Origin: Escherichia phage BAU.Micro_ELP-22
Direction: 5' to 3' (one strand)
Length of the DNA: 64,000 nt
Sequence record: OR699282.2
Positions within the stretch are counted from its first letter, which is position 1. Every line of letters begins with the position of its first letter. A program made the translations under genes and the position numbers. The notes beneath the pieces were generated by a model, which saw only the letters and a program-made list of their open reading frames with translations, was not told the origin of the DNA and did not search any database. Positions 35,449 through 63,440 of the stretch are shown here, piece after piece.

Positions 35449-35452
<4 letters not shown>
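35288..35452 (+). CDS. MTHEEW mini-protein family member 4
   Basis: 54 aa; MTHEEWMNDINF...; below ORF-track threshold. Confidence 0.4.
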
Positions 35453-47041: not shown

Positions 47042-47499
47042 TTATGTTTAAGAATTTTATGGTTATCGTAGCAGTACTGTTTGGCACATCATGTTTTATT
47101 TCCCCAGTACACGCAGAAGAACAACGTCAAACTATTAAAACTATTGGGACTGGTAAAACTCCCCCTAAACGTACTGCTGACGAATACATGCCTGAAATGC
47201 GTGAACGTTATCGTCAGACATACAGGGAAAAACATGCTAATGATAAACCCATCAAGAAGCATAAATGGGAAGTTGTTAAATCTCCTTCATTTTGTGCTGG
47301 ATATGCTAAAGTAAAGATTGAGCAGCACAAAAACCAGTACTATAAAGATATGTATTCCTTCTATGACTCCAGAATTTCTGACACAGATATGATGGCAGGG
47401 AAGGTTGATAAAGAAGAATTTCTACAAGGCTATGATATGATGGACGATGACAAAATCATGGAATGCGTTGAAGTGTATGAAAAATACAGAGGCTTCTGA
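47038..47499 (+). CDS. Secreted protein
   Basis: 153 aa; N-terminal signal peptide ending VHA-EE. Confidence 0.55.
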   Translation: MIMFKNFMVIVAVLFGTSCFISPVHAEEQRQTIKTIGTGKTPPKRTADEYMPEMRERYRQTYREKHANDKPIKKHKWEVVKSPSFCAGYAKVKIEQHKNQYYKDMYSFYDSRISDTDMMAGKVDKEEFLQGYDMMDDDKIMECVEVYEKYRGF

Positions 47500-47975
47500 T
47501 GTTAACAATAGTGTTGTTGGTAAGTCCATTTGTGTATTTTGTGCTGTATAATATTTTTAGTAATGCTAATCATTTTAAATATGCACAAACAATTGCAAAA
47601 CATGAAGGATTTTGGAATTTTTTCCCAGCGTTACTATGCTCATATCTATACCATGAACGCTATTTCATTTTTCCTGAATATAAAAATTATGGTTATGATT
47701 CTAAAGTAAATGGTATAATTGAGTACTGTATAAGAAATTATCTTAATAATAATGATAACGTCCAAGTAAGAATAGGAAATGGTAATATATCAAGAATAGT
47801 TTTCATACCTGATATACAAGACCCAATATACTTATATCCATATGATTATAGTATTAGTGTAGGTTGTTCGATACATGGTAGTAAATCTATGTACGATTAC
47901 TTTATCTTACCACCAACACAAATTAAATTAATAGAAAAATATTTGAGGGAAAAGTTTGACAACAAAGATTCTTAG
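47499..47975 (+). CDS. Membrane-anchored protein
   Basis: 158 aa; N-terminal TM. Confidence 0.5.
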   Translation: MLTIVLLVSPFVYFVLYNIFSNANHFKYAQTIAKHEGFWNFFPALLCSYLYHERYFIFPEYKNYGYDSKVNGIIEYCIRNYLNNNDNVQVRIGNGNISRIVFIPDIQDPIYLYPYDYSISVGCSIHGSKSMYDYFILPPTQIKLIEKYLREKFDNKDS

Positions 47976-48016
47976 TATTATAATTAACACACCAAGTAAC
48001 CCAAGGGGGATGGAAA

Positions 48017-48475
48017 ATGGATGTATTAGCTACAAATTTCAAACGTAATGTTGAAGAGCGTGAAGGTTATTTTAGTATTAGTGAAGTTGTCGATGACAAT
48101 TTTAAACAATACATTTTTAATAGTGCAATTAAATTAAAATGCACAAAAGATTCACCTGATCGTAGCTTTACTAAATGGATTGCGTATTGGGAAGATTCAC
48201 CAGTTGCAATTGAAATGACTGTGATTACAACAGTACTTGAAACTGGTTACATCAAAGCCATTATAGTTGATAAGAAAGTCCGTACTCTTGATGAAATTAA
48301 TCCATATCCAGCCCGAAATTCTAAAGTTTTTGGTGTGTTGGTTGATGGTAAATTTATGATAGAAAAAGATGCAAAGGAATATGTAATTAATAAACTTCAA
48401 ACTACATCAGAAAAAAAGGAAGTAGTGGACCAAAACTCTGTTGATGCAATCAAAAAAGCATGGGGACTAAAGTAA
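48017..48475 (+). CDS. Hypothetical protein
   Basis: 152 aa; AAGGGGGA RBS. Confidence 0.55.
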   Translation: MDVLATNFKRNVEEREGYFSISEVVDDNFKQYIFNSAIKLKCTKDSPDRSFTKWIAYWEDSPVAIEMTVITTVLETGYIKAIIVDKKVRTLDEINPYPARNSKVFGVLVDGKFMIEKDAKEYVINKLQTTSEKKEVVDQNSVDAIKKAWGLK

Positions 48476-48476
48476 T

Positions 48477-48899
48477 ATGTTCACACTAAGTAATGCAAAA
48501 TATCTTTTTCTTATTAGTATTATTGGTTGGGTTATGGCTCCAGTGCTAAATGCACTGGGGTTTTCCGATGAACATAAACTTTTAAATGTTTCAGGTTTAA
48601 TTCAGGGTATTTCATGGTATACATTAATTACATTTTCAGTGTGCATCAATACATTTGCCCGTGATTATCGACGTTTGTTATATCTGAAAGTATTTGGAAC
48701 TACACGATATAGTTTTGTTTACACTTTCATTTTAGTACCGTGTATGTTATATGCATTTGTATTTGATTACTATACATATCTATGGGTATGTGGAACTATG
48801 TTTGTTATGTTGGAATACATCAGAACTGTTCAAAACTCATATGCCGATGAGTTTCATGATCTAGAAGTTAAACGAAAATTAACGGAGCTAAACAAATGA
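48477..48899 (+). CDS. Polytopic membrane protein
   Basis: 140 aa; about 4 hydrophobic helices. Confidence 0.5.
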   Translation: MFTLSNAKYLFLISIIGWVMAPVLNALGFSDEHKLLNVSGLIQGISWYTLITFSVCINTFARDYRRLLYLKVFGTTRYSFVYTFILVPCMLYAFVFDYYTYLWVCGTMFVMLEYIRTVQNSYADEFHDLEVKRKLTELNK

Positions 48900-49321
48900 G
48901 AGGCTATAATAAGATTTGTATTTTTGTATTTTTAGTTTGTGCATTCAATTCGTTTGGTTACTACTGTACAGAAAATAATATTTCATATGGTTTAAATCCT
49001 TTGTGGTTTACAATTTCCAATGTAGCACAAATTGGTATTGCTCTTATGTCTGCACTTATGTTCTGTCCAATTGTCACTATGGATACTGATCATGAAAGGC
49101 TTGGATTTCTCCGTGATACTGGAGACGAACCTTACAGTAGATTGATTGTGTTGTATCCATTTATTGTTATTTTAGGTACTAACATCCAACTTGGGTCATT
49201 ATCTAATAGTGTTACATCAGCAGCTATTGCTATATTTGCATTCACATTTTTTATGGTACACAAATCAGTACTTAATTGGTATATCACAAAAATGGCAGAA
49301 GAAGGTACTAAAAATACTTGA
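48896..49321 (+). CDS. Polytopic membrane protein
   Basis: 141 aa; several hydrophobic helices; ATGA overlap. Confidence 0.5.
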   Translation: MRGYNKICIFVFLVCAFNSFGYYCTENNISYGLNPLWFTISNVAQIGIALMSALMFCPIVTMDTDHERLGFLRDTGDEPYSRLIVLYPFIVILGTNIQLGSLSNSVTSAAIAIFAFTFFMVHKSVLNWYITKMAEEGTKNT

Positions 49322-50912: not shown

Positions 50913-51878
50913 GTGAAAAAGCTTGATTTAAATACAATTGCCGAAGAAGTTCTGGATGAATGTTTTGCTAATGAAGAAGTCAACACACTAGAAGCCTTAG
51001 ATTTCGTTGAAGATAAAGATGAAAATGAAGGTAAAGTACAAAGCAGTTTCAAATATAATATTACACTTAAGCGACCACCAAATGTTTCCAATGAAGATCT
51101 AATTCGTGATATTCAAGCTGGTATCAATGTAAAGAAAAACACTGAACTGTTAGTTCGTTACAATTATGGACTGATTATTGATGTAGCAAGTAAATGTACT
51201 TGTTATATCCCATTTGAAGATAAGATTTCATATGGTGTTGAGGGGTTCATGAGAGCACTAAAAACCTTTGATCTTAATAAGAATGTTAAGTTCATTACCT
51301 ATGCTTCTTCTAGTATTTACATGACAGTCTATAACGAAAGTTCTGACGCTAACTATATGGTACACTTCCCACGTTATATGAGTGTTCATAAGATCAAAGT
51401 AAAAAGATTCTGTCAGGAATATATGCGTAAACATGGTGTTCGCCCAACTCCTGAAATAATCTCAGAGGGTACTGGGATTGAGATTCAGCATGTTAATAAT
51501 TGTTTGTTATTTCAAAGCGAATACACTTCGCTGGATGCACCATTAGACGGTGTTACAGATGGTACATTAGGTGACATTATTCATTCACCTGCTTCTGATT
51601 TTAACCTCAATGTTGATAGTATCCGTGCACCTTTACGTTATGCTATCAATGAACTGACTAACGAATTGAGTACTAAAGAACGTGAGATTATCCAGCGTGT
51701 TCATGGTCTAGGTGAATATGAACCTGAAACGCTTCGTGAGATTGCTGATAATGGTTTTGTTGATGATAATGGAAAATATGTTAAATCCCGTTCATCAATA
51801 CACCGAAAGTACAGTGAAGCTATGCAAAAGCTTAAGAAGTTAGTACTTGCAAAAGGGTACGAATACGAAGATTTCTAA
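50913..51878 (+). CDS. Sigma-70 family RNA polymerase sigma factor
   Basis: 321 aa, GTG start after AGGAG; region 2-like GVEGFMRALKTFDLNKNVKFITYASSSI and HFPRYM; region 4-like TLREIAD... Confidence 0.65.
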   Translation: MKKLDLNTIAEEVLDECFANEEVNTLEALDFVEDKDENEGKVQSSFKYNITLKRPPNVSNEDLIRDIQAGINVKKNTELLVRYNYGLIIDVASKCTCYIPFEDKISYGVEGFMRALKTFDLNKNVKFITYASSSIYMTVYNESSDANYMVHFPRYMSVHKIKVKRFCQEYMRKHGVRPTPEIISEGTGIEIQHVNNCLLFQSEYTSLDAPLDGVTDGTLGDIIHSPASDFNLNVDSIRAPLRYAINELTNELSTKEREIIQRVHGLGEYEPETLREIADNGFVDDNGKYVKSRSSIHRKYSEAMQKLKKLVLAKGYEYEDF

Positions 51879-51885
51879 AGAACAA

Positions 51886-51944: not shown

Positions 51945-52430
51945 CTTGTACAATTCTGTTGGCATGATATTCATGTACCTGATCCACTCGAAAACGTAGA
52001 GGGCAGTTGAGCAGTCCGACAGTGCGAACAGCAAAAGAAACCCGTTAGATGTGGGCATAGTTTGAACCCCTCACGGCAATGCGGCTGTATAAAGAACCAC
52101 GTTAGGATAGCTGGTGGTTCCTTGATAGACATATAAGGATAACACCTTACGAATTATCTAAGGGAGAGTTATCGAATTTTGTACAGGAAAGTTGCGTCCA
52201 AAATTTGAGTACTCACATTAAGTATTTGATTGCATAGATACTTAATGAAGATACACTATGTTTAAAAGTGTAGACCGTCATATGAAACTGAAGTAGAGAG
52301 AAACAGGATGACCCGCTTTCGCACTCGTTATGAGTAATCTTCAATGCAATAGCTCTGATACCATCAGCGTCAAATTTCCCTCCTTGTGGGGGGAAGAAAA
52401 ATCCCTTCCTCAAATCCCGTCAATATTAAA
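51945..52430 (+). ncRNA. ORF-free, partly GC-enriched block; candidate structured RNA
   Basis: No + strand ORF of 60 aa or more; first ~150 nt markedly more GC-rich than genome; ends with 8-bp hairpin ttccctcc/ggggggaa. Confidence 0.3.
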
Positions 52431-52435
52431 AGTCC

Positions 52436-52464
52436 TTGACAGTTATTAATCATTCGCGTAGAAT
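52436..52464 (+). promoter_or_regulatory. Sigma70-type promoter
   Basis: TTGACA, 17 nt spacer, TAGAAT. Confidence 0.55.
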
Positions 52465-52528
52465 ACGTAGTATTAGAAGCGAACAGACATCTCGAAGAGA
52501 TGGATGATTAACCATTAAGGAATATCCA

Positions 52529-52738
52529 ATGAATTCAGTAATCTTTTTAGTAGTCGCTTTTTCTGTTAATTCCGGTGTACAAATAACCCCAATGAATTCC
52601 ATGAATCAATGTATAGCAGTACGTGATAGTACATACGAACAAGTAAACAAAGATATTTGGATTACAGTTAATAAAGAACAAATGTGGTGTTACAATAGTA
52701 ATACTAACACAAAGCTTATTGTAGGACAAACTCAATGA
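52529..52738 (+). CDS. Small secreted protein
   Basis: 69 aa; hydrophobic N-terminus; AAGGAA RBS. Confidence 0.5.
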   Translation: MNSVIFLVVAFSVNSGVQITPMNSMNQCIAVRDSTYEQVNKDIWITVNKEQMWCYNSNTNTKLIVGQTQ

Positions 52739-52965
52739 GTTATGGTGTTCGTTTTGAGATTCGTTCTATTGTCATCGATGCAGAGAAACAAGTATCGTTA
52801 GATGGTGATATACGTGAAATTTATCTATCATGTATACGTGCGAAATCTGAAGCAGATGCCTTAGTACAAATGTATAGTTTTAACTTTTCAAATGGATTCT
52901 ATTTGGTACGAGTTATTGAAGTGAAAAAAGTACTTATTGGTTGTAGCATAGAAGGATTAATGTAA
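52735..52965 (+). CDS. Hypothetical protein
   Basis: 76 aa; ATGA overlap. Confidence 0.45.
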   Translation: MSYGVRFEIRSIVIDAEKQVSLDGDIREIYLSCIRAKSEADALVQMYSFNFSNGFYLVRVIEVKKVLIGCSIEGLM

Positions 52966-52966
52966 A

Positions 52967-53755
52967 ATGAGCACTATAGATGAACTGATTCGACGGAATT
53001 CAAAATATTACCAACCATCAGAAATTGTAGGTAACATTACCAAATCAGAGTTTGGTCCAAATACTCGAAAACTCATTCATGTAATGTCACGTGATGGCTT
53101 TAAATGTGATTGTTGTGGTGAATCAAATGTAGTATTCACTTTACACAAGCACAGTACTAAAGAACGTTATAAATTCAGACCTTATGTACTTAAAGGGAAA
53201 CGCCTTGTACGCATGACGTTAGACCATAATGTACTGGACTGTCTTCAGGGCGGTAATGATAAAGAGAACATGACTGCACTGTGTGAAGATTGTAACGCAT
53301 TACGCCAGCATAAGTTTGCTGAATACAGTGAGTTTAAACACTGGTATCATAACGCGGATCGTTCAATCGAGCCTGACGTTAACTACTGCTTCATTGAGTA
53401 CATTAAGAATGCCAAAGATACATACATTCTTAAATCAATGTCACCTATTACCGTGTTTCCTGAGAACCTATTCACTACATTAAAGAATAGTTTTATTGTA
53501 GGTGATATTGATGCATTCAAGTATTTTGACAAAGGTGCAAAACATTTTGAAATTCAATGTCTTAGTACTGCACTATGTGAACTCATTAAAATTTACATAA
53601 AAGAGTATTTGGGTATTGACAATGTACGTGTACCAGAGTATACTTTTTCTATTGAATTCGATTGTGAATCAATCAAAGAGTTTGGAATTCTTTTCAATAA
53701 ACAAATAGAACTTGCAATTCAAAACGAAATCAAGTACTATACTACTAACATTTAA
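52967..53755 (+). CDS. HNH endonuclease (probable free-standing homing endonuclease)
   Basis: 262 aa; Cys cluster FKCDCCGE; HNH core TLDHNVLDCLQGGNDKENMTALCEDCNALRQH. Confidence 0.7.
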   Translation: MSTIDELIRRNSKYYQPSEIVGNITKSEFGPNTRKLIHVMSRDGFKCDCCGESNVVFTLHKHSTKERYKFRPYVLKGKRLVRMTLDHNVLDCLQGGNDKENMTALCEDCNALRQHKFAEYSEFKHWYHNADRSIEPDVNYCFIEYIKNAKDTYILKSMSPITVFPENLFTTLKNSFIVGDIDAFKYFDKGAKHFEIQCLSTALCELIKIYIKEYLGIDNVRVPEYTFSIEFDCESIKEFGILFNKQIELAIQNEIKYYTTNI

Positions 53756-53770
53756 TCAGAGGAAATTATC

Positions 53771-53953
53771 ATGCAAATTATCATTCTTATCGTTGGCATC
53801 ATGCTGGGTGTTTACGGTCACTCCTGGATGAACGAGAAGTTTCCTAATACGCGTCCTGAGTATTGCAGTACTAATGTATTCCAGAATGGTGAGAAACCAA
53901 AGGAAAGCATTGGTAAAAAGCTGGATAAAGTACTTGATGTGATCAATGAATAA
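53771..53953 (+). CDS. Small membrane protein
   Basis: 60 aa; hydrophobic N-terminus; GAGGAAA RBS. Confidence 0.45.
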   Translation: MQIIILIVGIMLGVYGHSWMNEKFPNTRPEYCSTNVFQNGEKPKESIGKKLDKVLDVINE

Positions 53954-53963
53954 GGGCCATAAA

Positions 53964-54164
53964 ATGTTTAAACCGAATTCCAATGTTGGTAAGAAAGTTC
54001 AATTACTTGAAGATGTATCCACCATGAGTGGAATTTTCCCAAGAGGTCACATCATGACTATTATTGCCGAAACATCCCGTGGGTGGGATTTGGAAGATGC
54101 TGATGGTAATCGCATCCTTGAGGCTGGATTCTATGGTCATCGTGAATATAAAATCATTGATTAA
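53964..54164 (+). CDS. Hypothetical protein
   Basis: 66 aa from ATG with AAGGG RBS. Confidence 0.45.
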   Translation: MFKPNSNVGKKVQLLEDVSTMSGIFPRGHIMTIIAETSRGWDLEDADGNRILEAGFYGHREYKIID

Positions 54165-54173
54165 GGATACAAC

Positions 54174-54257
54174 ATGACTTTAGAGATTGTCTTTGGTATT
54201 GTTAGCTTAGTCGTCTGTGTGGGTTGGTTTGGGTATCTGATGATTTTTGGTGATTAA
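54174..54257 (+). CDS. Possible hydrophobic micro-protein
   Basis: 27 aa; AAGGA RBS; almost entirely hydrophobic. Confidence 0.25.
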   Translation: MTLEIVFGIVSLVVCVGWFGYLMIFGD

Positions 54258-54260
54258 TAC

Positions 54261-54288
54261 TTGACATAAGATATCAGTACTGTATAAT
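54261..54288 (+). promoter_or_regulatory. Early promoter, conserved-spacer family
   Basis: TTGACA-taagatatcagtactg-TATAAT. Confidence 0.7.
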
Positions 54289-54301
54289 GTTTATATCAAA
54301 G

Positions 54302-54351
54302 GGAATGCAGTGAAAGGAAAGACAGCATAATCGTACTCGTCACTGCGTTCC
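54302..54351 (+). promoter_or_regulatory. 5' leader hairpin, possible regulatory structure
   Basis: gggaatgcagtga ... tcactgcgttccc 13-bp stem (one G-U), 24-nt loop, 30 nt upstream of the 54382 start. Confidence 0.45.
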
Positions 54352-54381
54352 CGCCCTTTTAAATTAAATGAGGAATTAACT

Positions 54382-54690
54382 ATGTTTCAAACTAACACTC
54401 AAGGTTTTGTAATCATCGATTTGAATCAAAACAGCGGTTATTGGATGAAACCTACTGACGCATGTATGCAGTTTGATTTTTTAGGTTACAGGATTAGTGT
54501 AAGTACTGGTGCTTCTGTACTGCGTGGTGGTTGTATCGTTGAACATCTGGTAACTGATCCAGAAGGTCGTGAGTATGAAATCGCAGGTTCGGTACAAGAT
54601 GCCATTATGTTTGTATGTCAGCGTGAAATGAATAGTTCGAATTCAAATGCACTGACTCATGCTCTTTCTCAAGAAGTGGAGGTTCGTTAA
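54382..54690 (+). CDS. Hypothetical protein
   Basis: 102 aa; GAGGAA RBS. Confidence 0.55.
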   Translation: MFQTNTQGFVIIDLNQNSGYWMKPTDACMQFDFLGYRISVSTGASVLRGGCIVEHLVTDPEGREYEIAGSVQDAIMFVCQREMNSSNSNALTHALSQEVEVR

Positions 54691-54941
54691 TGAAATATAT
54701 CGTAGCAGTACTCGTTGCATTTTTACTCACTGCATGTGACGCTTCAACAAAAGAACGCACAAGTGATTTTATTCTCCCTATTGAATTACAAGAAGCAGGA
54801 TGTAAGATTTATCGTATGCAAAAGGACGGTGCTGGCGTAACCTTGTATACAGTTTATTGCCCTAATGCAAATACCAGTACTGGATACAGCAGCGGTAAAA
54901 CACGAATCAATACTTCAGTGATTAATGGAGTACAACAATGA
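54690..54941 (+). CDS. Small lipoprotein
   Basis: 83 aa; signal peptide with lipobox LTAC. Confidence 0.55.
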   Translation: MKYIVAVLVAFLLTACDASTKERTSDFILPIELQEAGCKIYRMQKDGAGVTLYTVYCPNANTSTGYSSGKTRINTSVINGVQQ

Positions 54942-55306
54942 GCCTTGATACAACCCGTGCAACAGATTTATTAACTCGTATGAATAATGAAGAATTTCTT
55001 GCTGAAATAAAGTACAAGCTTGAAAAACTGGCACGAAGTGCTGAAGTAATTGAAGTTGAAGGTCACTTACCAATGGACCAATTCAATACGTTCAACGAAG
55101 ATATGGTTTATTATCCAAATGAAATTTGGATTGAGTGGGAGTCATGGACTAACAAAACTCTACGCATTGAAGGTTATTGTGTGAATTATGAATCTGAACC
55201 TGGTGATGTTACAAAAACTCTCTCCATTTGGTGTACAAAAACACATGAACTCGTTGAGGTGAATTTGAATTATATGAAAGGTTTCCGTTGGGGTGATGTT
55301 CAATGA
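54938..55306 (+). CDS. Hypothetical protein
   Basis: 122 aa; ATGA overlap. Confidence 0.5.
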   Translation: MSLDTTRATDLLTRMNNEEFLAEIKYKLEKLARSAEVIEVEGHLPMDQFNTFNEDMVYYPNEIWIEWESWTNKTLRIEGYCVNYESEPGDVTKTLSIWCTKTHELVEVNLNYMKGFRWGDVQ

Positions 55307-55578
55307 TTAAAAAACTATTGACAGTTGTCTTTGTATTCTGTACAATGTTTCTTACAGCATGTAATGATGACGGCAGGTTTAGTGCAAAAGACTTAGTTCG
55401 TCAGGATTGTACATTCACAGGTAAGTCTTTTATTAACGAGTATGAGGTATGTACACAATCAGGCCGTATCTGTGGTGGTTGGGAAAAACGACAGGAGCGA
55501 TTGTATGTATATGAATGCCCTGGACATCACAACAAAGTACTAAGCACACACAAACTTGTTTATGATAAGGTTGAATAA
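55303..55578 (+). CDS. Small lipoprotein
   Basis: 91 aa; signal peptide with lipobox LTAC; 4 further Cys. Confidence 0.55.
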   Translation: MIKKLLTVVFVFCTMFLTACNDDGRFSAKDLVRQDCTFTGKSFINEYEVCTQSGRICGGWEKRQERLYVYECPGHHNKVLSTHKLVYDKVE

Positions 55579-55793
55579 TGACTACCAATGAAATGATGCA
55601 GGTTATTTGGGATAAAGGTTGTGATATTAAAATCACTAGTACTGATGTTCGTGTATTCAAAACTGAATATATGGAGTACTTGGACCTTGATACTTATAAT
55701 AATATTGTATCAATTGAACACAAAGGTGCAGTACTGGAAACCATTGACGTAGTACTCAAGAAAGCTACCGACCTATTAGGAGTGGCAGTGTGA
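55578..55793 (+). CDS. Hypothetical protein
   Basis: 71 aa; TAATG overlap. Confidence 0.5.
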   Translation: MTTNEMMQVIWDKGCDIKITSTDVRVFKTEYMEYLDLDTYNNIVSIEHKGAVLETIDVVLKKATDLLGVAV

Positions 55794-55936
55794 ATAACAA
55801 AGAGTGGGAAGATTACCGCAAGAAGTGCAGGGAGTTTGATAAAGAACTTACTGGTACAGTGAATGCAGTAATGTGGGTATCTGTAATTATTGCAGTTCTT
55901 GCGTTGGGTGCTATTATTATTAATAAATTATTCTAA
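55790..55936 (+). CDS. Small C-terminally anchored membrane protein
   Basis: 48 aa, GTG start overlapping upstream stop, AGGAG RBS. Confidence 0.35.
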   Translation: MNNKEWEDYRKKCREFDKELTGTVNAVMWVSVIIAVLALGAIIINKLF

Positions 55937-55944
55937 GGACTAAT

Positions 55945-56145
55945 ATGTTTACTTTATATCTTGCAGTAGTACTAACTAATGGTGAAATCACTCGCACCGT
56001 TGGTGAAGGTGTATATAAAACACCTGATCAGTGTTACTCTGCAACTCATTGGCCTCGTGATGCTGGTGATGAATCTCGCACTGAATACAAATGTATGAAG
56101 GTTAAAGGTGACTTTGTAAATCTAAAGGTTATTGAGACTAAGTAA
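55945..56145 (+). CDS. Small secreted or membrane protein
   Basis: 66 aa; hydrophobic N-terminus. Confidence 0.45.
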   Translation: MFTLYLAVVLTNGEITRTVGEGVYKTPDQCYSATHWPRDAGDESRTEYKCMKVKGDFVNLKVIETK

Positions 56146-56663
56146 TGGATATTAATGAGTTGTTGAAATTAGTGTTTAATCGTGAACGCCGCGATACAAG
56201 ACCAATTGAATATCAAGATGTGATACGCATTGAAACTGATTTCTGTTATGGTAAAACAACTCATGACCTTTTGAATCTCTCTGGAAAACGCTATGCTGAT
56301 GTTTGTTTTTCAGAGAGAAGTGATGGTTCAGAAATAACGAGTACTGATATTGTTTGTTACGCACGCAGTGCTGATAAATCTTATGAAATAGAACTTATAT
56401 ATTCCCCTAGTTCTAAAACAAATCATCACCGCCATATTTTATATGATGTTTACACACCACCTGGTATTGCTGAATATTTTGTTATTGATTATAGTACTGA
56501 AGAAAATGTGTTTCAACAAAGTTTGATTCATAACTTTGAGGTTAATGATCCATTAGTGCCAAAGTTATTCAAACTACTTGACACCATCGATGTTGATTTT
56601 GAATTTGTTATGTGTATTAGAACTTCTTTATTCAATGAATTCATGGAACTTTTTAATATATGA
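56145..56663 (+). CDS. C-terminal FFQ-x-S motif family member
   Basis: 172 aa; TEENVFQQSLIHN. Confidence 0.55.
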   Translation: MDINELLKLVFNRERRDTRPIEYQDVIRIETDFCYGKTTHDLLNLSGKRYADVCFSERSDGSEITSTDIVCYARSADKSYEIELIYSPSSKTNHHRHILYDVYTPPGIAEYFVIDYSTEENVFQQSLIHNFEVNDPLVPKLFKLLDTIDVDFEFVMCIRTSLFNEFMELFNI

Positions 56664-56881
56664 ATAGATACTATGTTGTGTATGAACACGTCTCTGAATT
56701 TAATAACATACGAGGTTATTCCAGAGTTGTCACAAAGATGGATGTATTCATTCGTGCTCTTAGTGAAGTGGATGCACTGTTTAAATTGTTTGATGAAATT
56801 ACAAAGTATAACACACCCAAAACACACCGCTATGTGGAAACTGTACATAGCATTATACTAACTGAAAGTGATGAGGAATGA
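56660..56881 (+). CDS. Hypothetical protein
   Basis: 73 aa; ATGA overlap. Confidence 0.45.
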   Translation: MNRYYVVYEHVSEFNNIRGYSRVVTKMDVFIRALSEVDALFKLFDEITKYNTPKTHRYVETVHSIILTESDEE

Positions 56882-56884
56882 TAA

Positions 56885-57103
56885 ATGAATTTATATCTAG
56901 TTGAAGGTTTAGTACAAGTCTATAAACCAGAAGGTGAAGGTCAACGTTTTTCACACGTAGAAGAATTTAAGTACGTTGTACAGGCTGATGGTCAGTACGA
57001 TGCGGAAATTCAAGTAGATGAATCATTCCGTAAGAAAAATGAAATTGGTAAATTTCAATACCAGAACTTACAATATAAAGTATGGCCTAGTATAAATGAC
57101 TAA
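56885..57103 (+). CDS. Hypothetical protein
   Basis: 72 aa ORF. Confidence 0.45.
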   Translation: MNLYLVEGLVQVYKPEGEGQRFSHVEEFKYVVQADGQYDAEIQVDESFRKKNEIGKFQYQNLQYKVWPSIND

Positions 57104-57311
57104 GATGTGGTGGTGTCATGGTGTATATAACGTGTATGTAAATGGTAGATATAAAATGTCTAGTACCTATGCAAGACGTGTTAATGCGAACAACCAAGTT
57201 GATGCTGCTTGTGAGATCATTGAGTGGTATGCTGAGTTCAATGCACCTGACTATATGTACGAAATAGTTACAATAAATGTTGTACAAATCGATACATCTT
57301 TGATACAATAA
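57096..57311 (+). CDS. Hypothetical protein
   Basis: 71 aa ORF. Confidence 0.45.
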   Translation: MTKMWWCHGVYNVYVNGRYKMSSTYARRVNANNQVDAACEIIEWYAEFNAPDYMYEIVTINVVQIDTSLIQ

Positions 57312-57343
57312 CCACATCAAAAAAATTGCATCTGAGGATACTT

Positions 57344-58006
57344 ATGTTAGTTAATCTTAATTTCATCACTTCACCTGACTGGGCATTACGTGGAGTTTCT
57401 TTAAACTTCAAGGAAACTATGTTTGACTACATTGGTGAGTGTACATTGGTAAATGCAACTTTTGATCCAAATCATCCGTTTTGGGCTGAAATTCATGATC
57501 CAAATGTAAACAACAATACATCTGTTATGACTATTGTCCAGACTAAACATGCAGGTATCCTTGCAGGTTATCGACCTGCACATGCAATTGAACACTTCAC
57601 TGATTACGATGTCGTGGATGAATACCCAATGATCCATGAAGATGGAAGTCTATACACATCTGAAGACTTCCGTGCTATCTTTAATAGTACTGATGATATT
57701 CTACCAAGTGGACGTCCACGTCCTGAGTCTTATCTTATGCATCCATCTTATGGTGTAGCAGATACGCTTGAACAGATTATGAATAAGTACAAGAACCTAA
57801 TTGAAGGTCCAGAAGAAATTGTCCTGTGCTATCACCCAGTACTGAAGTCTGAACAACCAAAGGATGGTGGATGGCGTTGGCATAAGAATGGTGAGTATAT
57901 CGGTACTAAACGAAGTAAAGAACGTTTTGAGTACTTGTATGATGAGCCAGATGTTGATGTGGTTTTGTGTTATAATTTTATTAAGGTGAAAAAGAAATGT
58001 ATCTAG
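57344..58006 (+). CDS. Hypothetical protein
   Basis: 220 aa from ATG with GAGGA RBS (track start 57326 is TTG). Confidence 0.55.
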   Translation: MLVNLNFITSPDWALRGVSLNFKETMFDYIGECTLVNATFDPNHPFWAEIHDPNVNNNTSVMTIVQTKHAGILAGYRPAHAIEHFTDYDVVDEYPMIHEDGSLYTSEDFRAIFNSTDDILPSGRPRPESYLMHPSYGVADTLEQIMNKYKNLIEGPEEIVLCYHPVLKSEQPKDGGWRWHKNGEYIGTKRSKERFEYLYDEPDVDVVLCYNFIKVKKKCI

Positions 58007-58239
58007 TACTAAGTTTTGTTGTTGCACTATTGTTTATGTTCTATCCTACACTAGTGGCATTAGCCACTAGGCGAACGATGGTAGATCTCACTACTGTATT
58101 CTTGCTAAACGTGGCATTAGTACTGGTGTCTATTATCATTCCAGTGAGCTTTACAGTTATTGATATTATTTCGGTATTACTCTTCGTGTTAAGTTATCTT
58201 ATGCTTATTGAAGAAACAAATGTTGACAAACGTTCGTAG
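57997..58239 (+). CDS. Small membrane protein
   Basis: 80 aa; two or three hydrophobic helices. Confidence 0.5.
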   Translation: MYLVLSFVVALLFMFYPTLVALATRRTMVDLTTVFLLNVALVLVSIIIPVSFTVIDIISVLLFVLSYLMLIEETNVDKRS

Positions 58240-58250
58240 TACTGTATAAT
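58223..58250 (+). promoter_or_regulatory. Early promoter, conserved-spacer family
   Basis: TTGACA-aacgttcgtagtactg-TATAAT, overlaps 3' end of previous gene. Confidence 0.65.
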
Positions 58251-58297
58251 GGTTCCTGTAGTCTGAAACTTAACACTTAAACTTGAGGTAAAAAAAT

Positions 58298-58624
58298 ATG
58301 CTATCAGTACTAATTTCAATTCCGTCTTTAATTCTGATTTGGCTTCTGGTTTACGAATGCTTTATTACTGATGATAATGATAAAAAAGAGTTCTCTGAGT
58401 TGTTTATGCTTGATTCACCGATTGTGCGTATTTTCTATACAGTCGTTGTGGTTTCAGTAATTGTATGGATTTTGAGTTTTATCTTCCCACTCGGTGCAGT
58501 AGTTAAAACTTTGGATTTAGTTGAGAACTTTGTTGCAATTATGTGGCTAATCAAAGCACTATTTGCAGGAAATGTTAAAATTTGGATTGATATTATCAAA
58601 TTCAAGTTCACGAATAAGATGTAA
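58298..58624 (+). CDS. Polytopic membrane protein
   Basis: 108 aa; three hydrophobic helices. Confidence 0.5.
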   Translation: MLSVLISIPSLILIWLLVYECFITDDNDKKEFSELFMLDSPIVRIFYTVVVVSVIVWILSFIFPLGAVVKTLDLVENFVAIMWLIKALFAGNVKIWIDIIKFKFTNKM

Positions 58625-58650
58625 CAGTGAAAATATCTCTATAGTATTAA

Positions 58651-58683
58651 ATACTTCTGTACATATATATAGTACAGAAGTAT
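58651..58683 (+). terminator. Long perfect hairpin, probable terminator
   Basis: atacttctgtac - atatatata - gtacagaagtat (12-bp stem) followed by TTCT. Confidence 0.5.
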
Positions 58684-58702
58684 TTCTCGTTAGAGGTTTG
58701 TT

Positions 58703-59062
58703 ATGAAGAGTTATATAAAATTAATAGCACTTGTGTGTGCATTATTTTCATGTTTTAGTTATGGTGCAGCAGCAGAAACATATTGTCGTAGTACTAAGGG
58801 AACGTGGCATGTATTGACTAACGACCCTAGAAATGGTAAAAATATAGTTGTTGATGGTGTGATTTATCGTTTTAAAGTAGAAAGTATTATCGGTAATAAA
58901 AAAATCTCGACTTATAGAGATGATTCTGGTACATTAGCAAACGTAATATTAATTGTAGACCCAAGAACTGGTAATGGTGATATCTATATAGTAATTTACT
59001 TGGACTCATCGGTACGCCGTGACCTAGATATAGATAAATTGAACTTACACTGTGAAATATAG
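58703..59062 (+). CDS. Secreted protein (paralogue of 59453 gene)
   Basis: 119 aa; signal peptide; shares C..G..H, IVVDGVIYRF pattern with 59453 ORF. Confidence 0.55.
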   Translation: MKSYIKLIALVCALFSCFSYGAAAETYCRSTKGTWHVLTNDPRNGKNIVVDGVIYRFKVESIIGNKKISTYRDDSGTLANVILIVDPRTGNGDIYIVIYLDSSVRRDLDIDKLNLHCEI

Positions 59063-59072
59063 GACTTAAAAA

Positions 59073-59450
59073 ATGGTAAACACTATTTTACTTTTGTTGT
59101 TGAATATTCCAATTATTCTGTCTTTTTTAATTTCTATTTTTATGGCAGGATATTGTTTAGTTGCAGTAATTCATTTCATTTTAACAAACAAATATGTCCT
59201 AATTTCTAAGCTTGATTCTATTTTTGCTTGCGATTCGATTGCTTATAACTTGTGGTTAATTTGTTCTTGCATTATGGGAGTAACTTTCCTTCTGTATGTA
59301 TTTGATGTCCTTGACCAAAAGTTCGTATACATCAGTACTGGATTGGCTCTTTATCCTGCTACGTGGTACTTGATTTACGTTGGTGATATATGGTATAGTA
59401 CTTATAAAGAATATCAGTACAAGAAATCACTTAACGTTGGAGGAAAATAA
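59073..59450 (+). CDS. Polytopic membrane protein
   Basis: 125 aa; about 4 hydrophobic helices. Confidence 0.5.
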   Translation: MVNTILLLLLNIPIILSFLISIFMAGYCLVAVIHFILTNKYVLISKLDSIFACDSIAYNLWLICSCIMGVTFLLYVFDVLDQKFVYISTGLALYPATWYLIYVGDIWYSTYKEYQYKKSLNVGGK

Positions 59451-59452
59451 TC

Positions 59453-59803
59453 ATGAAAATTATTTTATTTTTTGTATGTATGTTAATGTGTGGATTGTCA
59501 TATGCTGAACCATTGGAAGGTTTAGTTTGTACAGATGGTAATATTAAACATATCTATCAAGGTGATAGTGACAATCGAGATATTGTATATATTGATGGAC
59601 AATCATATACGTTTGTTAAAGAGCATACAGTAGGCGACATTAGCTTCACTGAGTTTTCTAACGACACAGACCCTAACTTCTTAGCGTTTATTGAAGTAGA
59701 TGTATATGAAGATAGTAATGGCACACAATATGCTAAATTAGTTATGATGCGTCGTGGTGCTAAAGAAACTAGTTTTGGTGGCTTGTGTAAATATAAGGAT
59801 TGA
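59453..59803 (+). CDS. Secreted protein (paralogue of 58703 gene)
   Basis: 116 aa; signal peptide SYA-EP; IVYIDGQSYTF. Confidence 0.55.
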   Translation: MKIILFFVCMLMCGLSYAEPLEGLVCTDGNIKHIYQGDSDNRDIVYIDGQSYTFVKEHTVGDISFTEFSNDTDPNFLAFIEVDVYEDSNGTQYAKLVMMRRGAKETSFGGLCKYKD

Positions 59804-59807
59804 TATT

Positions 59808-59999
59808 ATGTTGATTTATCAAAGTGATAATATTCGTGTTATGCAGCATCCCTACTTACAAATCTTTGATGTGCAGCAGTATATGGAAGGTGATGACCCA
59901 AGAACCTATGGTCGTAAGTATGATTACTTCACTGTAAAGCAGTGTAAAAATATTAACGAAGTACGACAATTAGTTCAAGAACTTCAAAACAAAGGTTGA
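59808..59999 (+). CDS. Hypothetical protein
   Basis: 63 aa from ATG with AAGGA RBS. Confidence 0.45.
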   Translation: MLIYQSDNIRVMQHPYLQIFDVQQYMEGDDPRTYGRKYDYFTVKQCKNINEVRQLVQELQNKG

Positions 60000-60025
60000 C
60001 TTCGGTCAGCCTTTTTTGTTATAAT
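59994..60025 (+). terminator. Composite terminator-promoter element, copy 1
   Basis: ggttgac-ttcg-gtcagcc hairpin plus T6; the hairpin contains TTGACT and is followed 18 nt later by TATAAT. Confidence 0.65.
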
Positions 60026-60053
60026 TCTCTTAATAAATTAGAGGATTTTAATT

Positions 60054-60494
60054 ATGTATGTATATCGTTTTGAACTTAAATTTAGTTACATTGAACCTAA
60101 CTTAGATCCTGCACGAACTGTAGGTCCGTTTGCACGGTATTCAACTAGATACAGTACTAAAAATGGATTTGACCGTTTGTGCATGACCACACCTTCGCAA
60201 TTCCAACCAGAACCAACTGAAGATGGAATCTATTCAATCAAACGTGGCTGGGTATTTGGCTGTCAAAGTTTGAAAGATTTGTTCAGATTCTTCACTATGG
60301 ACTTGGGTAAATTGCATCGTGCTGGGTTTGCTATATCTGTATATGAAGTTCCAGACCACCATGTAGACATTGGTCGTAATCAGGTTCAGTACTATTGCGG
60401 TAGTGCTAAATTAGTTCGTATCATGTCAGTTAAGGAAGCAAAGGATGAGTTCCGACAAAGTAAAAGAGAAACACATGAGGTAATATATGGATAA
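60054..60494 (+). CDS. Hypothetical protein
   Basis: 146 aa; GAGGA RBS. Confidence 0.55.
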   Translation: MYVYRFELKFSYIEPNLDPARTVGPFARYSTRYSTKNGFDRLCMTTPSQFQPEPTEDGIYSIKRGWVFGCQSLKDLFRFFTMDLGKLHRAGFAISVYEVPDHHVDIGRNQVQYYCGSAKLVRIMSVKEAKDEFRQSKRETHEVIYG

Positions 60495-60831
60495 AACTCA
60501 AATAGAATTAAAGAAATTTGTTTCATTCTATTTTCCTGATGACCCACGTAATTCACAAAAAGATATTGAATATTATAATATCCTATCTAAACAGTTAATG
60601 AGAAAGTTTCAACAGTGTTTAACTATATTCAATACAGATGGAAGACGTAGATACCGAATCGTTTCAATGAATGATGAAAACGCAAATTTCTTTGATTACG
60701 ATGTAGTTTTTAGAGCATATAATGATGATCGTATAAAATTAAATTATGATCAAATTATACTTGACCTGAATGTTATATGTGTTATAATCACTCACGTAGC
60801 CGAACTTAATGGTTTTAAAGAATGGTATTGA
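60487..60831 (+). CDS. Hypothetical protein
   Basis: 114 aa; overlap coupling. Confidence 0.5.
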   Translation: MDKTQIELKKFVSFYFPDDPRNSQKDIEYYNILSKQLMRKFQQCLTIFNTDGRRRYRIVSMNDENANFFDYDVVFRAYNDDRIKLNYDQIILDLNVICVIITHVAELNGFKEWY

Positions 60832-61470: not shown

Positions 61471-61692
61471 ATGAAATATATAGTACTTGTACTGATATTA
61501 TTCAGTACTGTTGTAAGTGCTAAACAAAAAGAATATGTTAAATGTATAAATTATGAAGAGAAATATGTTGAAACATATAAAAAAAGTATAATTAAAAACG
61601 TTTCGATTACTAACAGAGCAACAATCATTGTACTTAAAAATGGGTTAATTATGCTATATAAACCACACGTTAAATGTGAAATTATTAATTGA
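61471..61692 (+). CDS. Small secreted protein
   Basis: 73 aa; signal peptide ending VVSA-KQ. Confidence 0.5.
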   Translation: MKYIVLVLILFSTVVSAKQKEYVKCINYEEKYVETYKKSIIKNVSITNRATIIVLKNGLIMLYKPHVKCEIIN

Positions 61693-63296: not shown

Positions 63297-63410
63297 ATGC
63301 AAGGTTTAAAATTTGTAGTTGCTGCACTCATCGCCGCAGTACTGGTTGGTGGTGTATTCTATGTAGTGGATCAAAAAGTAAATCCACCTGCACAAGAACA
63401 ATCTACGTAA
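63297..63410 (+). CDS. Small membrane peptide
   Basis: 37 aa; GAGG RBS; hydrophobic core VVAALIAAVLVGGVFYVV. Confidence 0.4.
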   Translation: MQGLKFVVAALIAAVLVGGVFYVVDQKVNPPAQEQST

Positions 63411-63418
63411 CAAAATAA

Positions 63419-63440
63419 GGTTGACTTCGGTCAGCCTTTT
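63419..63440 (+). terminator. Composite terminator-promoter element, copy 3
   Basis: ggttgac-ttcg-gtcagcc hairpin plus TTTT; near-identical to copy 1. Confidence 0.65.

What the first reader, a model, noticed from the sequence alone, without database searches (positions are those of the whole stretch)
52529..59803. Cluster of small exported proteins, lipoproteins and polytopic membrane proteins
Between 52529 and 59803 many ORFs carry signal peptides (52529, 58703, 59453), lipoboxes (54690, 55303, both LTAC) or multiple TM helices (57997, 58298, 59073); the two secreted proteins at 58703 and 59453 are paralogues. These could be envelope-acting functions such as superinfection exclusion or receptor masking; function is inferred from localisation signals only.
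Basis: partly seen in the sequence, partly recalled or inferred. Interest (0 to 1): 0.45.

Follow-up and report, generated by a model that had tools for sequence, protein, structure and literature searches.

The report
Early envelope-protein genes of jumbo phage
This stretch of a 121Q/RaK2-type jumbo coliphage does encode many small membrane, lipoprotein and periplasmic proteins, and its conserved core is an early operon with two secreted proteins predicted to have the fold of bacterial lysozyme inhibitors, but their function has not been tested.

Summary
The window is an Asteriusvirus-type jumbo phage, 98% identical to UB and 121Q. Ten of 22 genes in 52529-59803 carry a hydrophobic targeting segment, against 17 of 122 elsewhere. 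Both LTAC lipoboxes are real, and 58703 and 59453 are true distant paralogues (hhalign 94.9%, signal peptides removed).

The "cluster" is not one unit. It spans at least three transcription units with different evolutionary histories. The solid core is 57997-59803: five consecutive envelope proteins (permutation p=0.02), colinear in Klebsiella phage RaK2. A conserved consensus sigma-70 promoter lies at 58223 and a terminator at 59991.

Best reading: early, non-structural envelope modifiers, possibly peptidoglycan-hydrolase inhibitors acting like T4 Spackle. The Cor/Llp "receptor-masking" labels on the lipoproteins are not supported. All functional claims are inference.

The parts
52436..52464 (+). 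sigma-70-like promoter (TTGACA-17-TAGAAT, 11 of 12) upstream of 52529
   Evidence: The same site is present in fEgEco12 and 121Q.
52529..52738 (+). 69-aa protein with an N-terminal hydrophobic segment; probably exported, but the signal peptide is atypical (no basic n-region); conserved Cys28/Cys54
   Evidence: Own family phrog_37707. 34% identical to RaK2 ORF246. omega 0.09-0.23.
53771..53953 (+). 60-aa protein with an N-terminal membrane anchor (residues 1-21) and a charged C-terminal domain
   Evidence: Conserved in Turkey5 and RaK2.
54174..54257 (+). possible 27-codon single-TM mini-protein (MTLEIVFGIVSLVVCVGWFGYLMIFGD); status uncertain
   Evidence: AAGGA Shine-Dalgarno. Intact in fEgEco12 and CRJP21, frameshifted in 121Q and phAPEC6.
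54261..54288 (+). perfect sigma-70 consensus promoter (TTGACA-16-TATAAT) in the intergenic gap before 54382 and the lipoprotein genes
   Evidence: 10 perfect sites in the window against 0.31 expected, all on the + strand. Conserved in relatives.
54690..54941 (+). lipoprotein 1 (83 aa; lipobox LTAC, Cys16; +2 Asp; two more conserved Cys), member of a family widespread in virulent phages (phrog_902)
   Evidence: AF2 model has low confidence (pLDDT 66). No PDB match.
55303..55578 (+). lipoprotein 2 (91 aa; lipobox LTAC, Cys20; +2 Asn/+3 Asp; four more Cys), restricted to RaK2-like jumbo phages
55790..55936 (+). 48-aa protein with a C-terminal membrane anchor, a highly charged N-terminal part and a GTG start
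57344..58006 (+). 220-aa soluble protein of unknown function; first gene of the six-gene block colinear with RaK2 ORF262-267; its end overlaps the start of 57997 by 10 nt
57997..58239 (+). 80-aa membrane protein, 2-3 TM segments, short charged C-terminus
   Evidence: 46% identical to RaK2 ORF263.
58223..58250 (+). perfect sigma-70 consensus promoter (TTGACA-16-TATAAT) heading the 58298-59999 operon
   Evidence: Equivalent sites lie upstream of the orthologues in fEgEco12, 121Q, Turkey5 and RaK2.
58298..58624 (+). 108-aa membrane protein, 2-3 TM segments, Lys-rich C-terminus
   Evidence: Unrelated to 59073 and 57997.
58703..59062 (+). secreted paralogue A (119 aa; signal peptide about 24 aa; mature domain with Cys28/Cys117)
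59073..59450 (+). 125-aa membrane protein, 3-4 TM segments, Lys-rich C-terminus
59453..59803 (+). secreted paralogue B (116 aa; signal peptide 18 aa). Predicted eight-stranded beta-barrel with Cys26 in strand 1 and Cys112 in strand 8; best fold match is PliC
59808..59999 (+). 63-aa soluble protein, last gene of the operon (phrog_6957)
59991..60014 (+). intrinsic terminator hairpin overlapping the -35 box of the next promoter (a PeSL-like cassette)

Best explanation
SHOWN. The region is part of the sigma-70-driven, presumably early, non-structural "short-ORF" region of an Asteriusvirus-type jumbo phage. It encodes a heterogeneous set of small envelope-targeted proteins, all under purifying selection: two lipoproteins, three polytopic membrane proteins, two single-anchor proteins and two or three Sec-exported proteins.

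Only one part behaves as a module. It is the operon P(58223) - 58298 (membrane) - 58703 (secreted) - 59073 (membrane) - 59453 (secreted) - 59808 - terminator (59991). Together with 57344 and 57997 upstream, it keeps its gene order as far away as Klebsiella phage RaK2. The two secreted proteins are ancient paralogues. They are predicted to fold as eight-stranded beta-barrels of the MliC/PliC type, closed by a strand 1-strand 8 disulfide.

INFERRED. Early after infection the host RNA polymerase transcribes this operon. The two barrels are exported by Sec, oxidised in the periplasm, and bind a peptidoglycan hydrolase. The most likely target is the tail-associated lysozyme of secondary (superinfecting) virions. 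Alternatives are the phage's own membrane-tethered endolysin or a host lytic transglycosylase. The infected cell would thereby be protected from lysis-from-without or superinfection. This is the job T4 Spackle does with an unrelated helical fold.

The interleaved membrane proteins may anchor or partner the barrels, or block DNA entry at the inner membrane as T4 Imm does. The two lipoproteins are separate, probably inner-membrane-anchored periplasmic factors of unknown target; one belongs to a family shared by many virulent phages.
For: - Identity and gene set.
- Export, lipidation and TM signals and their conservation.
- Purifying selection on every gene.
- Not in the virion: none of phAPEC6 gp045c-gp065c is among the 62 MS-detected virion proteins. 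The RaK2 orthologues are not flagged as structural.
- Early expression: two perfect TTGACA-16-TATAAT promoters lie in the intergenic gaps at 54261 and 58223. Ten such sites occur in the window, all on the + strand, against 0.31 expected. The promoter is conserved before the orthologues in fEgEco12, 121Q, Turkey5 and RaK2, with a terminator after the operon. The CBB paper assigns the equivalent promoter-rich short-ORF region, which includes the sigma-factor gene, to early host-takeover genes (PMC5259590).
- Module: five consecutive envelope genes (p=0.02), colinear with RaK2 ORF262-267 at 22-46% identity.
- Paralogy: hhalign 94.9%, E=4.6e-8 without signal peptides; alignment A8.
- Disulfide: the only Cys invariant in both paralogue families lie in predicted strands 1 and 8. 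This is the disulfide conserved in MliC, PliC and ACP (PMC5507604).
- Precedents: ACP inhibits lysozyme without the family motifs. T4 Spackle is an early, signal-peptide-bearing periplasmic inhibitor of the tail lysozyme gp5 (PMC7677548, PMC7650644).
- Possible target: the phAPEC6 virion contains a 96-kDa lysozyme-family protein, gp241.
Against: - No experiment bears on function.
- The MliC/PliC motifs SxSGAxY and YxxxTKG are absent. The single YxxxTKG occurrence, found only in 58703 and one 98%-identical homologue, lies at strand 1, the wrong place.
- Pfam MliC is not matched. Profile searches of the PDB and of 1.84 billion representatives give no bridge to MliC/PliC.
- In the model the strand 4-strand 5 connection is a two-residue turn. 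In MliC/PliC that connection is the inhibitory loop, so the same insertion mechanism is unlikely.
- The model rests on only 20 sequences.
- The membrane proteins have no detectable relatives and are unrelated to each other.
- Early timing is inferred from promoter consensus only.
- The whole-region enrichment is only marginal after correction for window choice (p=0.07).
Confidence: 0.4

Rival explanations
1. The region is a heterogeneous set of unrelated accessory envelope proteins with no common function. The beta-barrels bind something other than a peptidoglycan hydrolase, for example a host periplasmic or outer-membrane protein, a small ligand, or an incoming phage's tape-measure or ejection proteins. 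The PliC resemblance would then be only a generic eight-stranded barrel.
For: - At least three transcription units.
- dS against fEgEco12 is about 0 for 54382-55936 but saturated for 58298-59803, so the region is a mosaic of different histories.
- The lipoproteins have no RaK2 match in the stretch examined, while 57344-59803 is conserved there.
- All families are unrelated to each other.
- Non-inhibitor barrels score almost as high as PliC.
- The inhibitor motifs are absent and the equivalent loop is short.
- The sliding-window enrichment is p=0.07.
Against: - The conserved strand 1-strand 8 Cys pair matches the family.
- The run of five envelope genes and its conserved synteny and promoter argue for a real module.
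Confidence: 0.35
2. These are lysis-control genes. The small multi-TM proteins would be holins or antiholins, the lipoproteins would be o-spanins, and the secreted proteins would be antiholin or lysis-inhibition factors like T4 RI.
For: 57997, 58298 and 59073 are small, have 2-4 TM segments and end in short charged C-termini, as holins do. Small lipoproteins in virulent phages are often o-spanins (general knowledge). The RaK2-like endolysin has an N-terminal TM domain, so periplasmic control is conceivable (PMC5259590).
Against: - The endolysin of 121Q is gp532, far from genes 168-190.
- The genes sit behind consensus sigma-70 promoters in the presumed early region, not behind late promoters.
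- No i-spanin-like partner (N-terminal TM plus a periplasmic coiled coil) adjoins or embeds either lipoprotein gene.
- Asp at +2 of 54690 predicts inner-membrane retention, which is incompatible with an o-spanin (plus the established +2 rule).
- Homologues of 54690 in Felix O1, phiTE, Vibrio D332 and others lie among replication and early genes.
Confidence: 0.12
3. The two lipoproteins are Cor/Llp-type lytic-conversion lipoproteins that mask an outer-membrane receptor, as annotated in phage fEgEco12.
For: fEgEco12 annotates both orthologues as "lytic conversion lipoprotein". There is a weak full-length hit of 54690 to the Cor family phrog_1119, E=9.4e-4, and a sub-threshold hit to the entry-exclusion lipoprotein TrbK, E=0.03.
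Against: - The Cor hit vanishes once the signal peptide is removed. Only phrog_902 (unknown function) remains.
- A family-profile search (lipoprotein 1) and a single-sequence search (lipoprotein 2) of the PDB found no Llp or any other match, and the fold search of the lipoprotein 1 model gave no significant hit.
- Asp at +2 (36 of 81 family members; CDAS in the window) points to the inner membrane.
- The fEgEco12 paper says nothing about these genes.
Confidence: 0.1
4. Some of these products are virion structural proteins. CRJP21 annotates the orthologues of 59453 and 60054 as "structural protein".
For: The CRJP21 annotation.
Against: None of the orthologues (gp045c-gp065c) is among the 62 proteins detected by MS in phAPEC6 virions. 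The RaK2 orthologues are not marked as structural. A cleavable Sec signal peptide and a periplasmic disulfide do not fit cytoplasmic virion assembly.
Confidence: 0.03

Closest known systems
MliC/PliC periplasmic and membrane-bound inhibitors of C-type lysozyme (Pfam PF09864), and the motif-less relative Neisseria ACP
   Same: - Small (about 95-aa mature) Sec-exported proteins.
- Conserved Cys pair in strands 1 and 8, as in MliC, PliC and ACP.
   Different: - No sequence similarity: no Pfam, PDB-profile or 1.84-billion-protein profile match.
- The SxSGAxY and YxxxTKG motifs are absent.
- The equivalent of inhibitory loop 4 is a two-residue turn.
- Encoded by a virulent phage in an early operon, interleaved with membrane-protein genes.
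- Inhibition is untested.
T4 Spackle (gp61.3), the superinfection-exclusion protein that inhibits the tail lysozyme gp5
   Same: An early phage gene product with a cleaved signal peptide that acts in the periplasm (PMC7677548, PMC7650644). The proposed role, neutralising a phage muramidase, is the same. T4 also pairs it functionally with a small membrane protein, Imm (own knowledge).
   Different: Spackle is fully alpha-helical and acts allosterically. The proteins here are predicted all-beta. There is no sequence match. Here there are two paralogues in one operon with three membrane proteins.
Cor (phi80/N15/T1) and T5 Llp receptor-blocking outer-membrane lipoproteins
   Same: Small phage-encoded lipoproteins of 60-90 aa with disulfide-forming Cys, expressed from a virulent or lytic programme.
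   Different: - No homology once the signal peptide is removed.
- No PDB sequence or fold match.
- The +2 Asp predicts inner-membrane rather than outer-membrane location.
- The family of 54690 (phrog_902) is spread over Felix O1-like, rV5-like, Vibrio (114-kb and 158-kb genomes) and jumbo phages with very different receptors.
Hyperplastic regions of T4-type phages bounded by PeSL promoter/terminator cassettes
   Same: Runs of short accessory ORFs of unknown function. Consensus early promoters overlap stem-loop terminators, and the same hairpin occurs at 59992 and 63417 and recurs in relatives. Neighbouring blocks have mosaic histories (PMC2839356, PMC4122927).
   Different: Described for T4-like phages proper. 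Here it occurs in the distantly related RaK2-like jumbo phages, and I did not show recombination at the cassettes.

Membership tests
MliC/PliC lysozyme inhibitors (PF09864) | Eight-stranded antiparallel beta-barrel | tested here: met
MliC/PliC lysozyme inhibitors (PF09864) | Disulfide bridge between strand 1 and strand 8 | tested here: met
   Cys26 lies in predicted strand 24-28 and Cys112 in strand 106-114. Both are invariant across the two paralogue families. The feature is defined in PMC5507604. Bond formation itself is inferred.
MliC/PliC lysozyme inhibitors (PF09864) | SxSGAxY motif on loop 4 (strand 4-strand 5) | tested here: not met
   Absent from all 20 family members, even with a relaxed pattern. 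The loop is a two-residue turn in the model.
MliC/PliC lysozyme inhibitors (PF09864) | YxxxTKG motif on strand 6 | tested here: not met
   Only 58703 and one near-identical homologue contain YCRSTKG, and it lies at strand 1, not strand 6. It is not conserved.
MliC/PliC lysozyme inhibitors (PF09864) | Match to the family HMM or sequence similarity to members | tested here: not met
   No Pfam hit at E<=1. No PliC or MliC chain found in a PDB profile search at E<=10. No bridge in the 1.84-billion-protein profile search.
MliC/PliC lysozyme inhibitors (PF09864) | Inhibition of lysozyme activity | not testable with these tools
   Needs a biochemical assay.
T4 Spackle-type superinfection exclusion | Early-expressed periplasmic protein with a cleavable signal peptide | tested here: inconclusive
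   Signal peptides have AXA-type cleavage sites and are supported by Shine-Dalgarno sequences. A consensus sigma-70 promoter lies upstream and is conserved. Expression timing was not measured.
T4 Spackle-type superinfection exclusion | Homology or fold of gp61.3 (five-helix globule) | tested here: not met
   The model is all-beta. A PDB profile search at E<=10 returned six chains, none of them Spackle. The Spackle fold is described in PMC7650644.
Bacterial-type lipoproteins (signal peptidase II substrates) | Lipobox [LVI][ASTVI][GAS]C after a basic n-region and a hydrophobic h-region | tested here: met
   54690: MKYIVAVLVAFLLTAC. 55303: MIKKLLTVVFVFCTMFLTAC. A lipobox is present in 81 of 84 members of the 54690 family and in all four 55303 orthologues inspected. 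LipoP and SignalP were not available.
Cor superinfection-exclusion lipoproteins (phrog_1119) | HMM match over the mature domain | tested here: not met
   The full-length hit (E=9.4e-4) covers residues 1-49 including the signal peptide. There is no hit for mature 54690 or 55303 at E<=1.
T5 Llp lytic-conversion lipoprotein | Sequence or fold similarity to Llp (solved, per my own recollection; I did not confirm that it is in the searched PDB copy) | tested here: not met
   No PDB sequence match with the family profile or with 55303. No Foldseek hit at E<=0.001 for the 54690 model, which has low confidence (pLDDT 66).
Two-component spanins (o-spanin lipoprotein plus i-spanin) | Lipoprotein gene embedded in, overlapping or adjacent to a gene for a type-II membrane protein with a periplasmic coiled coil, within a lysis cassette | tested here: not met
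   The neighbours of both lipoprotein genes are soluble proteins without TM segments. The endolysin gene is elsewhere. Homologues lie among replication and early genes in other phages.
Holins | Small protein with one or more TM segments and a charged C-terminus, encoded next to the endolysin and expressed late | tested here: inconclusive
   Size, TM count and C-terminal charge fit 57997, 58298 and 59073. Location (no endolysin nearby) and the sigma-70 early-type promoters do not fit.

The most novel reading that the evidence does not exclude
58703 and 59453 found a new family, restricted to RaK2-like jumbo phages, of phage-encoded periplasmic peptidoglycan-hydrolase inhibitors. They have an MliC/PliC-like barrel but lack the canonical inhibitory motifs. 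They are produced early, together with dedicated small membrane partners, and make the infected cell refractory to the tail lysozymes of superinfecting phages, or hold the phage's own membrane-tethered endolysin in check. This would be a second, structurally independent solution to the problem T4 solves with Spackle and Imm.
Probability: 0.3. Interest if true: 0.6.

Novelty: new variant of a known kind. Interest (0 to 1): 0.4.

Why it matters
Most genes of jumbo phages have no assigned function (83% in phAPEC6). This analysis turns an anonymous stretch into a defined, conserved early operon with a testable hypothesis: two periplasmic barrels with a lysozyme-inhibitor fold, plus membrane partners. 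If correct, it would give a second mechanism of Spackle-like superinfection exclusion or protection from lysis-from-without. It would also show that the MliC/PliC fold has been recruited by viruses. That matters for phage-cocktail design, because 121Q/PBECO4-type phages are used against pathogenic E. coli and Salmonella, and exclusion between cocktail members reduces efficacy. The analysis also corrects database labels that are not supported: "lytic conversion lipoprotein" in fEgEco12, "structural protein" in CRJP21, and the truncated starts in 121Q that remove the signal peptides.

Tried and rejected
- Cor/Llp homology of the lipoproteins: rejected. The hit is driven by the signal peptide, and there is no PDB sequence or fold match.
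- Precomputed Pfam label PF16225 on all homologues of 54690: not reproducible with hmmscan at E<=10.
- Duplication of a two-gene module (membrane protein plus secreted protein): rejected. 58298, 59073 and 57997 are mutually unrelated, with hhalign probability below 1%.
- Further paralogues of the barrel family among other exported proteins (61471, 47044, lipoprotein 55303): none.
- 121Q gene 173, which the window lacks, as an extra exported protein: it is a soluble acidic protein.
- Positive selection as the cause of the strong divergence of 58298-59803 among close relatives: rejected. dS is saturated and omega is about 0.14-0.31, so these are old alleles exchanged by recombination.
- Pfam, PHROGs, NCBIfam and PADLOC scans of all genes gave no functional assignment except the HNH endonuclease at 52967.
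- The AF2 model of lipoprotein 54690 was too weak (pLDDT 66) to interpret.
- The AFDB fold library was unavailable.
- No paper on CRJP21 was found. The fEgEco12 paper does not discuss these genes.
- Three large repeat proteins hit by the barrel profile are flagellin-like or repeat proteins that share only a short hairpin motif.

Full report
**Identity and context.**
The window is AT-rich (about 33% GC) and almost all long ORFs are on the + strand. Region 52000-60500 is 97-98% identical over its full length to Escherichia phages UB, 121Q, PBECO4 and phAPEC6, which are Asteriusvirus jumbo myoviruses of about 350 kb. The finding corresponds to 121Q genes 168-190. It lies directly downstream of the phage sigma-factor gene (50913-51878). 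Depositors call nearly everything here "hypothetical". The exceptions are an HNH endonuclease (52967), "lytic conversion lipoprotein" twice in fEgEco12, and "structural protein" for the 59453 and 60054 orthologues in CRJP21.

**Checking the observation.**
SignalP, LipoP and TMHMM are not among the tools. I used a transparent Kyte-Doolittle, lipobox and -3/-1-rule script on all 144 + strand genes of the window, and then used conservation.
- *Signal peptides.* 58703 and 59453 have textbook signal peptides (MKSYIK-h-region-GAAA|E and MK-h-region-SYA|E). Their upstream ATG starts carry GAGG and GGAGG Shine-Dalgarno boxes. The shorter starts annotated in 121Q, which delete the signal peptides, have none.
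- *Lipoproteins.* 54690 and 55303 both have ...LTAC lipoboxes after a basic n-region.
- *Polytopic proteins.* 57997, 58298 and 59073 have 2-3, 2-3 and 3-4 long uncharged hydrophobic runs and Lys/Arg-rich C-termini.
- *52529.* It has a conserved hydrophobic N-terminus and two conserved Cys, even in RaK2, but no basic n-region. Export is probable, not certain.
- *Statistics.* 10 of 22 genes in the region carry a hydrophobic segment, against 17 of 122 elsewhere (Fisher p=0.0016). Corrected for having picked the window, a 23-gene sliding-window permutation gives p=0.07. The run of five consecutive envelope genes, 57997-59453, gives p=0.02.

The statistically and evolutionarily solid part is the right-hand third.

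**Paralogy.**
BLASTP between 58703 and 59453 gives 23% identity, partly across the signal peptides. I removed the signal peptides and built small ortholog profiles from fEgEco12, Turkey5 and RaK2. With these, hhalign gives 94.9% probability, E=4.6e-8. PHROG cross-hits persist on the mature parts. The 20-member alignment shows shared motifs along the whole length and two invariant Cys near the mature N- and C-termini. Both paralogues already exist side by side in RaK2, so the duplication is old. The paralogy claim is confirmed.

**Are these genes, and are they structural?**
Every gene has omega = 0.02-0.42 against fEgEco12 and/or Turkey5. None of the phAPEC6 orthologues (gp045c-gp065c) is among the 62 virion proteins found by mass spectrometry (PMC7247149). 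RaK2 ORF262-267 are not flagged as structural. The CRJP21 "structural protein" label is therefore unsupported.

**Architecture.**
- Perfect consensus sigma-70 promoters (TTGACA-16-TATAAT) lie in the two intergenic gaps at 54261-54288 and 58223-58250. An 11-of-12 site lies at 52436. Strong terminators lie at 51884, 59991 and 63417.
- The window has ten perfect sites, all on the + strand, against 0.31 expected.
- The site before the 58298 orthologue is conserved in fEgEco12, 121Q, Turkey5 and, with one mismatch, RaK2. The hairpin after the 59808 orthologue is conserved in the three coliphages.
- For the related phage CBB, the published analysis places the RpoD-type promoters in the short-ORF region containing the sigma-factor gene and interprets it as the early, host-takeover region. 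It also locates the 121Q endolysin at gp532, far from here (PMC5259590).

The region therefore comprises at least three early-type transcription units. The last is P58223 - 58298 - 58703 - 59073 - 59453 - 59808 - T59991.

**Evolution.**
Per-gene tblastn shows that 57344 - 57997 - 58298 - 58703 - 59073 - 59453 is colinear with RaK2 ORF262-267 (46, 46, 28, 31, 22 and 42% identity). Neither lipoprotein has a match in the 16-kb syntenic RaK2 stretch examined. Against fEgEco12 the segment 54382-55936 is almost identical (dS 0-0.09). The segment 58298-59803 is 43-77% identical with saturated dS and omega of about 0.14-0.31. This is mosaic exchange of old alleles, not positive selection. An identical hairpin that overlaps a -35 box occurs at 59992 and 63417 and recurs in the relatives. 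It resembles the PeSL promoter/terminator cassettes that mediate module shuffling in T4-type phages (PMC2839356, PMC4122927).

**The secreted paralogues.**
- *Family size.* It is tiny. Twenty clusters turn up among 5.8 billion proteins and 12 representatives among 1.84 billion. Nine of those are small phage proteins. The other three are large repeat or flagellin-like proteins that share only a hairpin motif.
- *Model.* An AlphaFold2 model of 59453 has pLDDT 79, about 85-90 over most of the mature domain, and eight strands.
- *Family definition.* The literature defines MliC/PliC by this barrel, a strand 1-strand 8 disulfide and the motifs SxSGAxY (loop 4) and YxxxTKG (strand 6). ACP keeps the fold and disulfide, lacks the motifs, and still inhibits lysozyme (PMC5507604).
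- *What matches.* The two Cys invariant across both paralogue families fall in predicted strands 1 and 8.
- *What does not.* Both motifs are absent. No HMM or profile link exists. The strand 4-strand 5 connection is a tight turn.

The conclusion is an MliC/PliC-like fold with family membership not established. The inhibitor function is a reasonable but unproven inference. T4 Spackle is an early, signal-peptide-bearing periplasmic inhibitor of the tail lysozyme gp5 with an unrelated helical fold, and it is the closest functional precedent (PMC7677548, PMC7650644). The phAPEC6 virion does contain a 96-kDa lysozyme-family protein.

**The membrane proteins.**
57997, 58298 and 59073 each form their own conserved family, are unrelated to one another and match nothing known. 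Their size and charged C-termini are holin-like. Their early-type promoters and their distance from the endolysin argue against a lysis role.

**The lipoproteins.**
- *54690.* It belongs to a family found in 571 phage records: Felix O1-like, rV5-like, Vibrio phages (114-kb and 158-kb genomes), and Erwinia and Yersinia jumbo phages. A profile search returned 154 clusters.
  - The lipid Cys and Cys38 are invariant in all 84 aligned members; C57-P58 and G69-K70 are at least 90% conserved.
  - In other phages the gene sits among replication and early genes, never in a lysis cassette.
  - Asp is the commonest +2 residue (36 of 81; CDAS here). By the established E. coli +2 rule this predicts inner-membrane retention.
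  - The Cor hit is a signal-peptide artefact.
  - The model is poor (pLDDT 66) and matches nothing.
- *55303.* It is confined to RaK2-like jumbo phages and has four extra Cys. It matches nothing.

Their targets are unknown. "Receptor masking" is not supported.

**Verdict.**
Superinfection exclusion is plausible and now has a concrete, testable mechanism for two of the proteins. Receptor masking by Cor/Llp-like lipoproteins is not supported. The feature is a new variant of a known kind, namely phage early envelope or exclusion functions using an MliC/PliC-like fold. Interest is moderate.

Noticed in passing
window 59992-60013 and 63417-63438 (also L001 at 1354 and 9479; L012 at 9555, 13115, 13391 and 15006; L003 at 9843; L011 at 14397): The identical hairpin AAGGTTGACTTCGGTCAGCCTT occurs at both window sites and has a T-run after it. 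It acts as a terminator and contains the -35 box (TTGACT) of the next promoter. It recurs at block borders in relatives and resembles the PeSL promoter/terminator cassettes of T4-type phages (PMC2839356, PMC4122927). It may explain the mosaicism seen here.
   Followed up: partly
window 54174-54257: Unannotated 27-codon ORF (MTLEIVFGIVSLVVCVGWFGYLMIFGD) with an AAGGA Shine-Dalgarno, just before the 54261 promoter. It is intact in fEgEco12 and CRJP21 but frameshifted in 121Q and phAPEC6. Turkey5 has a peptide with the same GWFGYLM motif immediately before another hairpin cassette (L012 13323-13379).
   Followed up: partly
window 54164-54382: The window lacks 121Q gene 173, a 97-aa soluble acidic protein. 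Relatives carry an extra ~350 bp here that holds this gene and a second perfect promoter.
   Followed up: partly
window 52735-53755: The HNH endonuclease gene (262 aa) and the preceding 76-aa gene are absent from Turkey5 and RaK2 at the syntenic position. This is probably a mobile homing-endonuclease insertion.
   Followed up: no
window 47044-49321: A second small group of envelope proteins: 47044 has a signal peptide, and 47499, 48477 and 48896 have 1, 2 and 4 TM segments. 48477 and 48896 are conserved in RaK2 (ORF239 "membrane protein" and ORF240). Perfect sigma-70 promoters lie at 46110, 47956 and 49318.
   Followed up: partly
window 61471-61692 and 63297-63410: Further exported or membrane mini-proteins just outside the finding. 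One is a 73-aa protein with a signal peptide (TVVSA|KQ) and Cys near both mature ends. It is not related to the barrel family and is only 49% identical in fEgEco12. CRJP21 annotates it as "protein kinase", which is implausible. The other is a 37-aa single-TM peptide.
   Followed up: partly
window 33523-33702, 33781-33957, 35288-35452: Three paralogous proteins of about 55-60 aa, all starting MTHEEW, are interspersed with the tRNA genes. The window has seven tRNAs between 33985 and 39408.
   Followed up: no
window 50913-51878: The phage sigma-factor gene is only 57-59% identical in protein to those of fEgEco12 and Turkey5 (dS about 1.3), although genes 3 kb downstream are about 100% identical to fEgEco12. 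This is striking allelic mosaicism in a regulatory gene.
   Followed up: no
relatives: 121Q genes 168, 188 and 190; phAPEC6 region L004 4540-5428 and 8474-8923: Database annotation problems. 121Q starts genes 168, 188 and 190 downstream of the signal or hydrophobic N-termini. phAPEC6 does not annotate either lipoprotein gene or the 58703 orthologue.
   Followed up: yes
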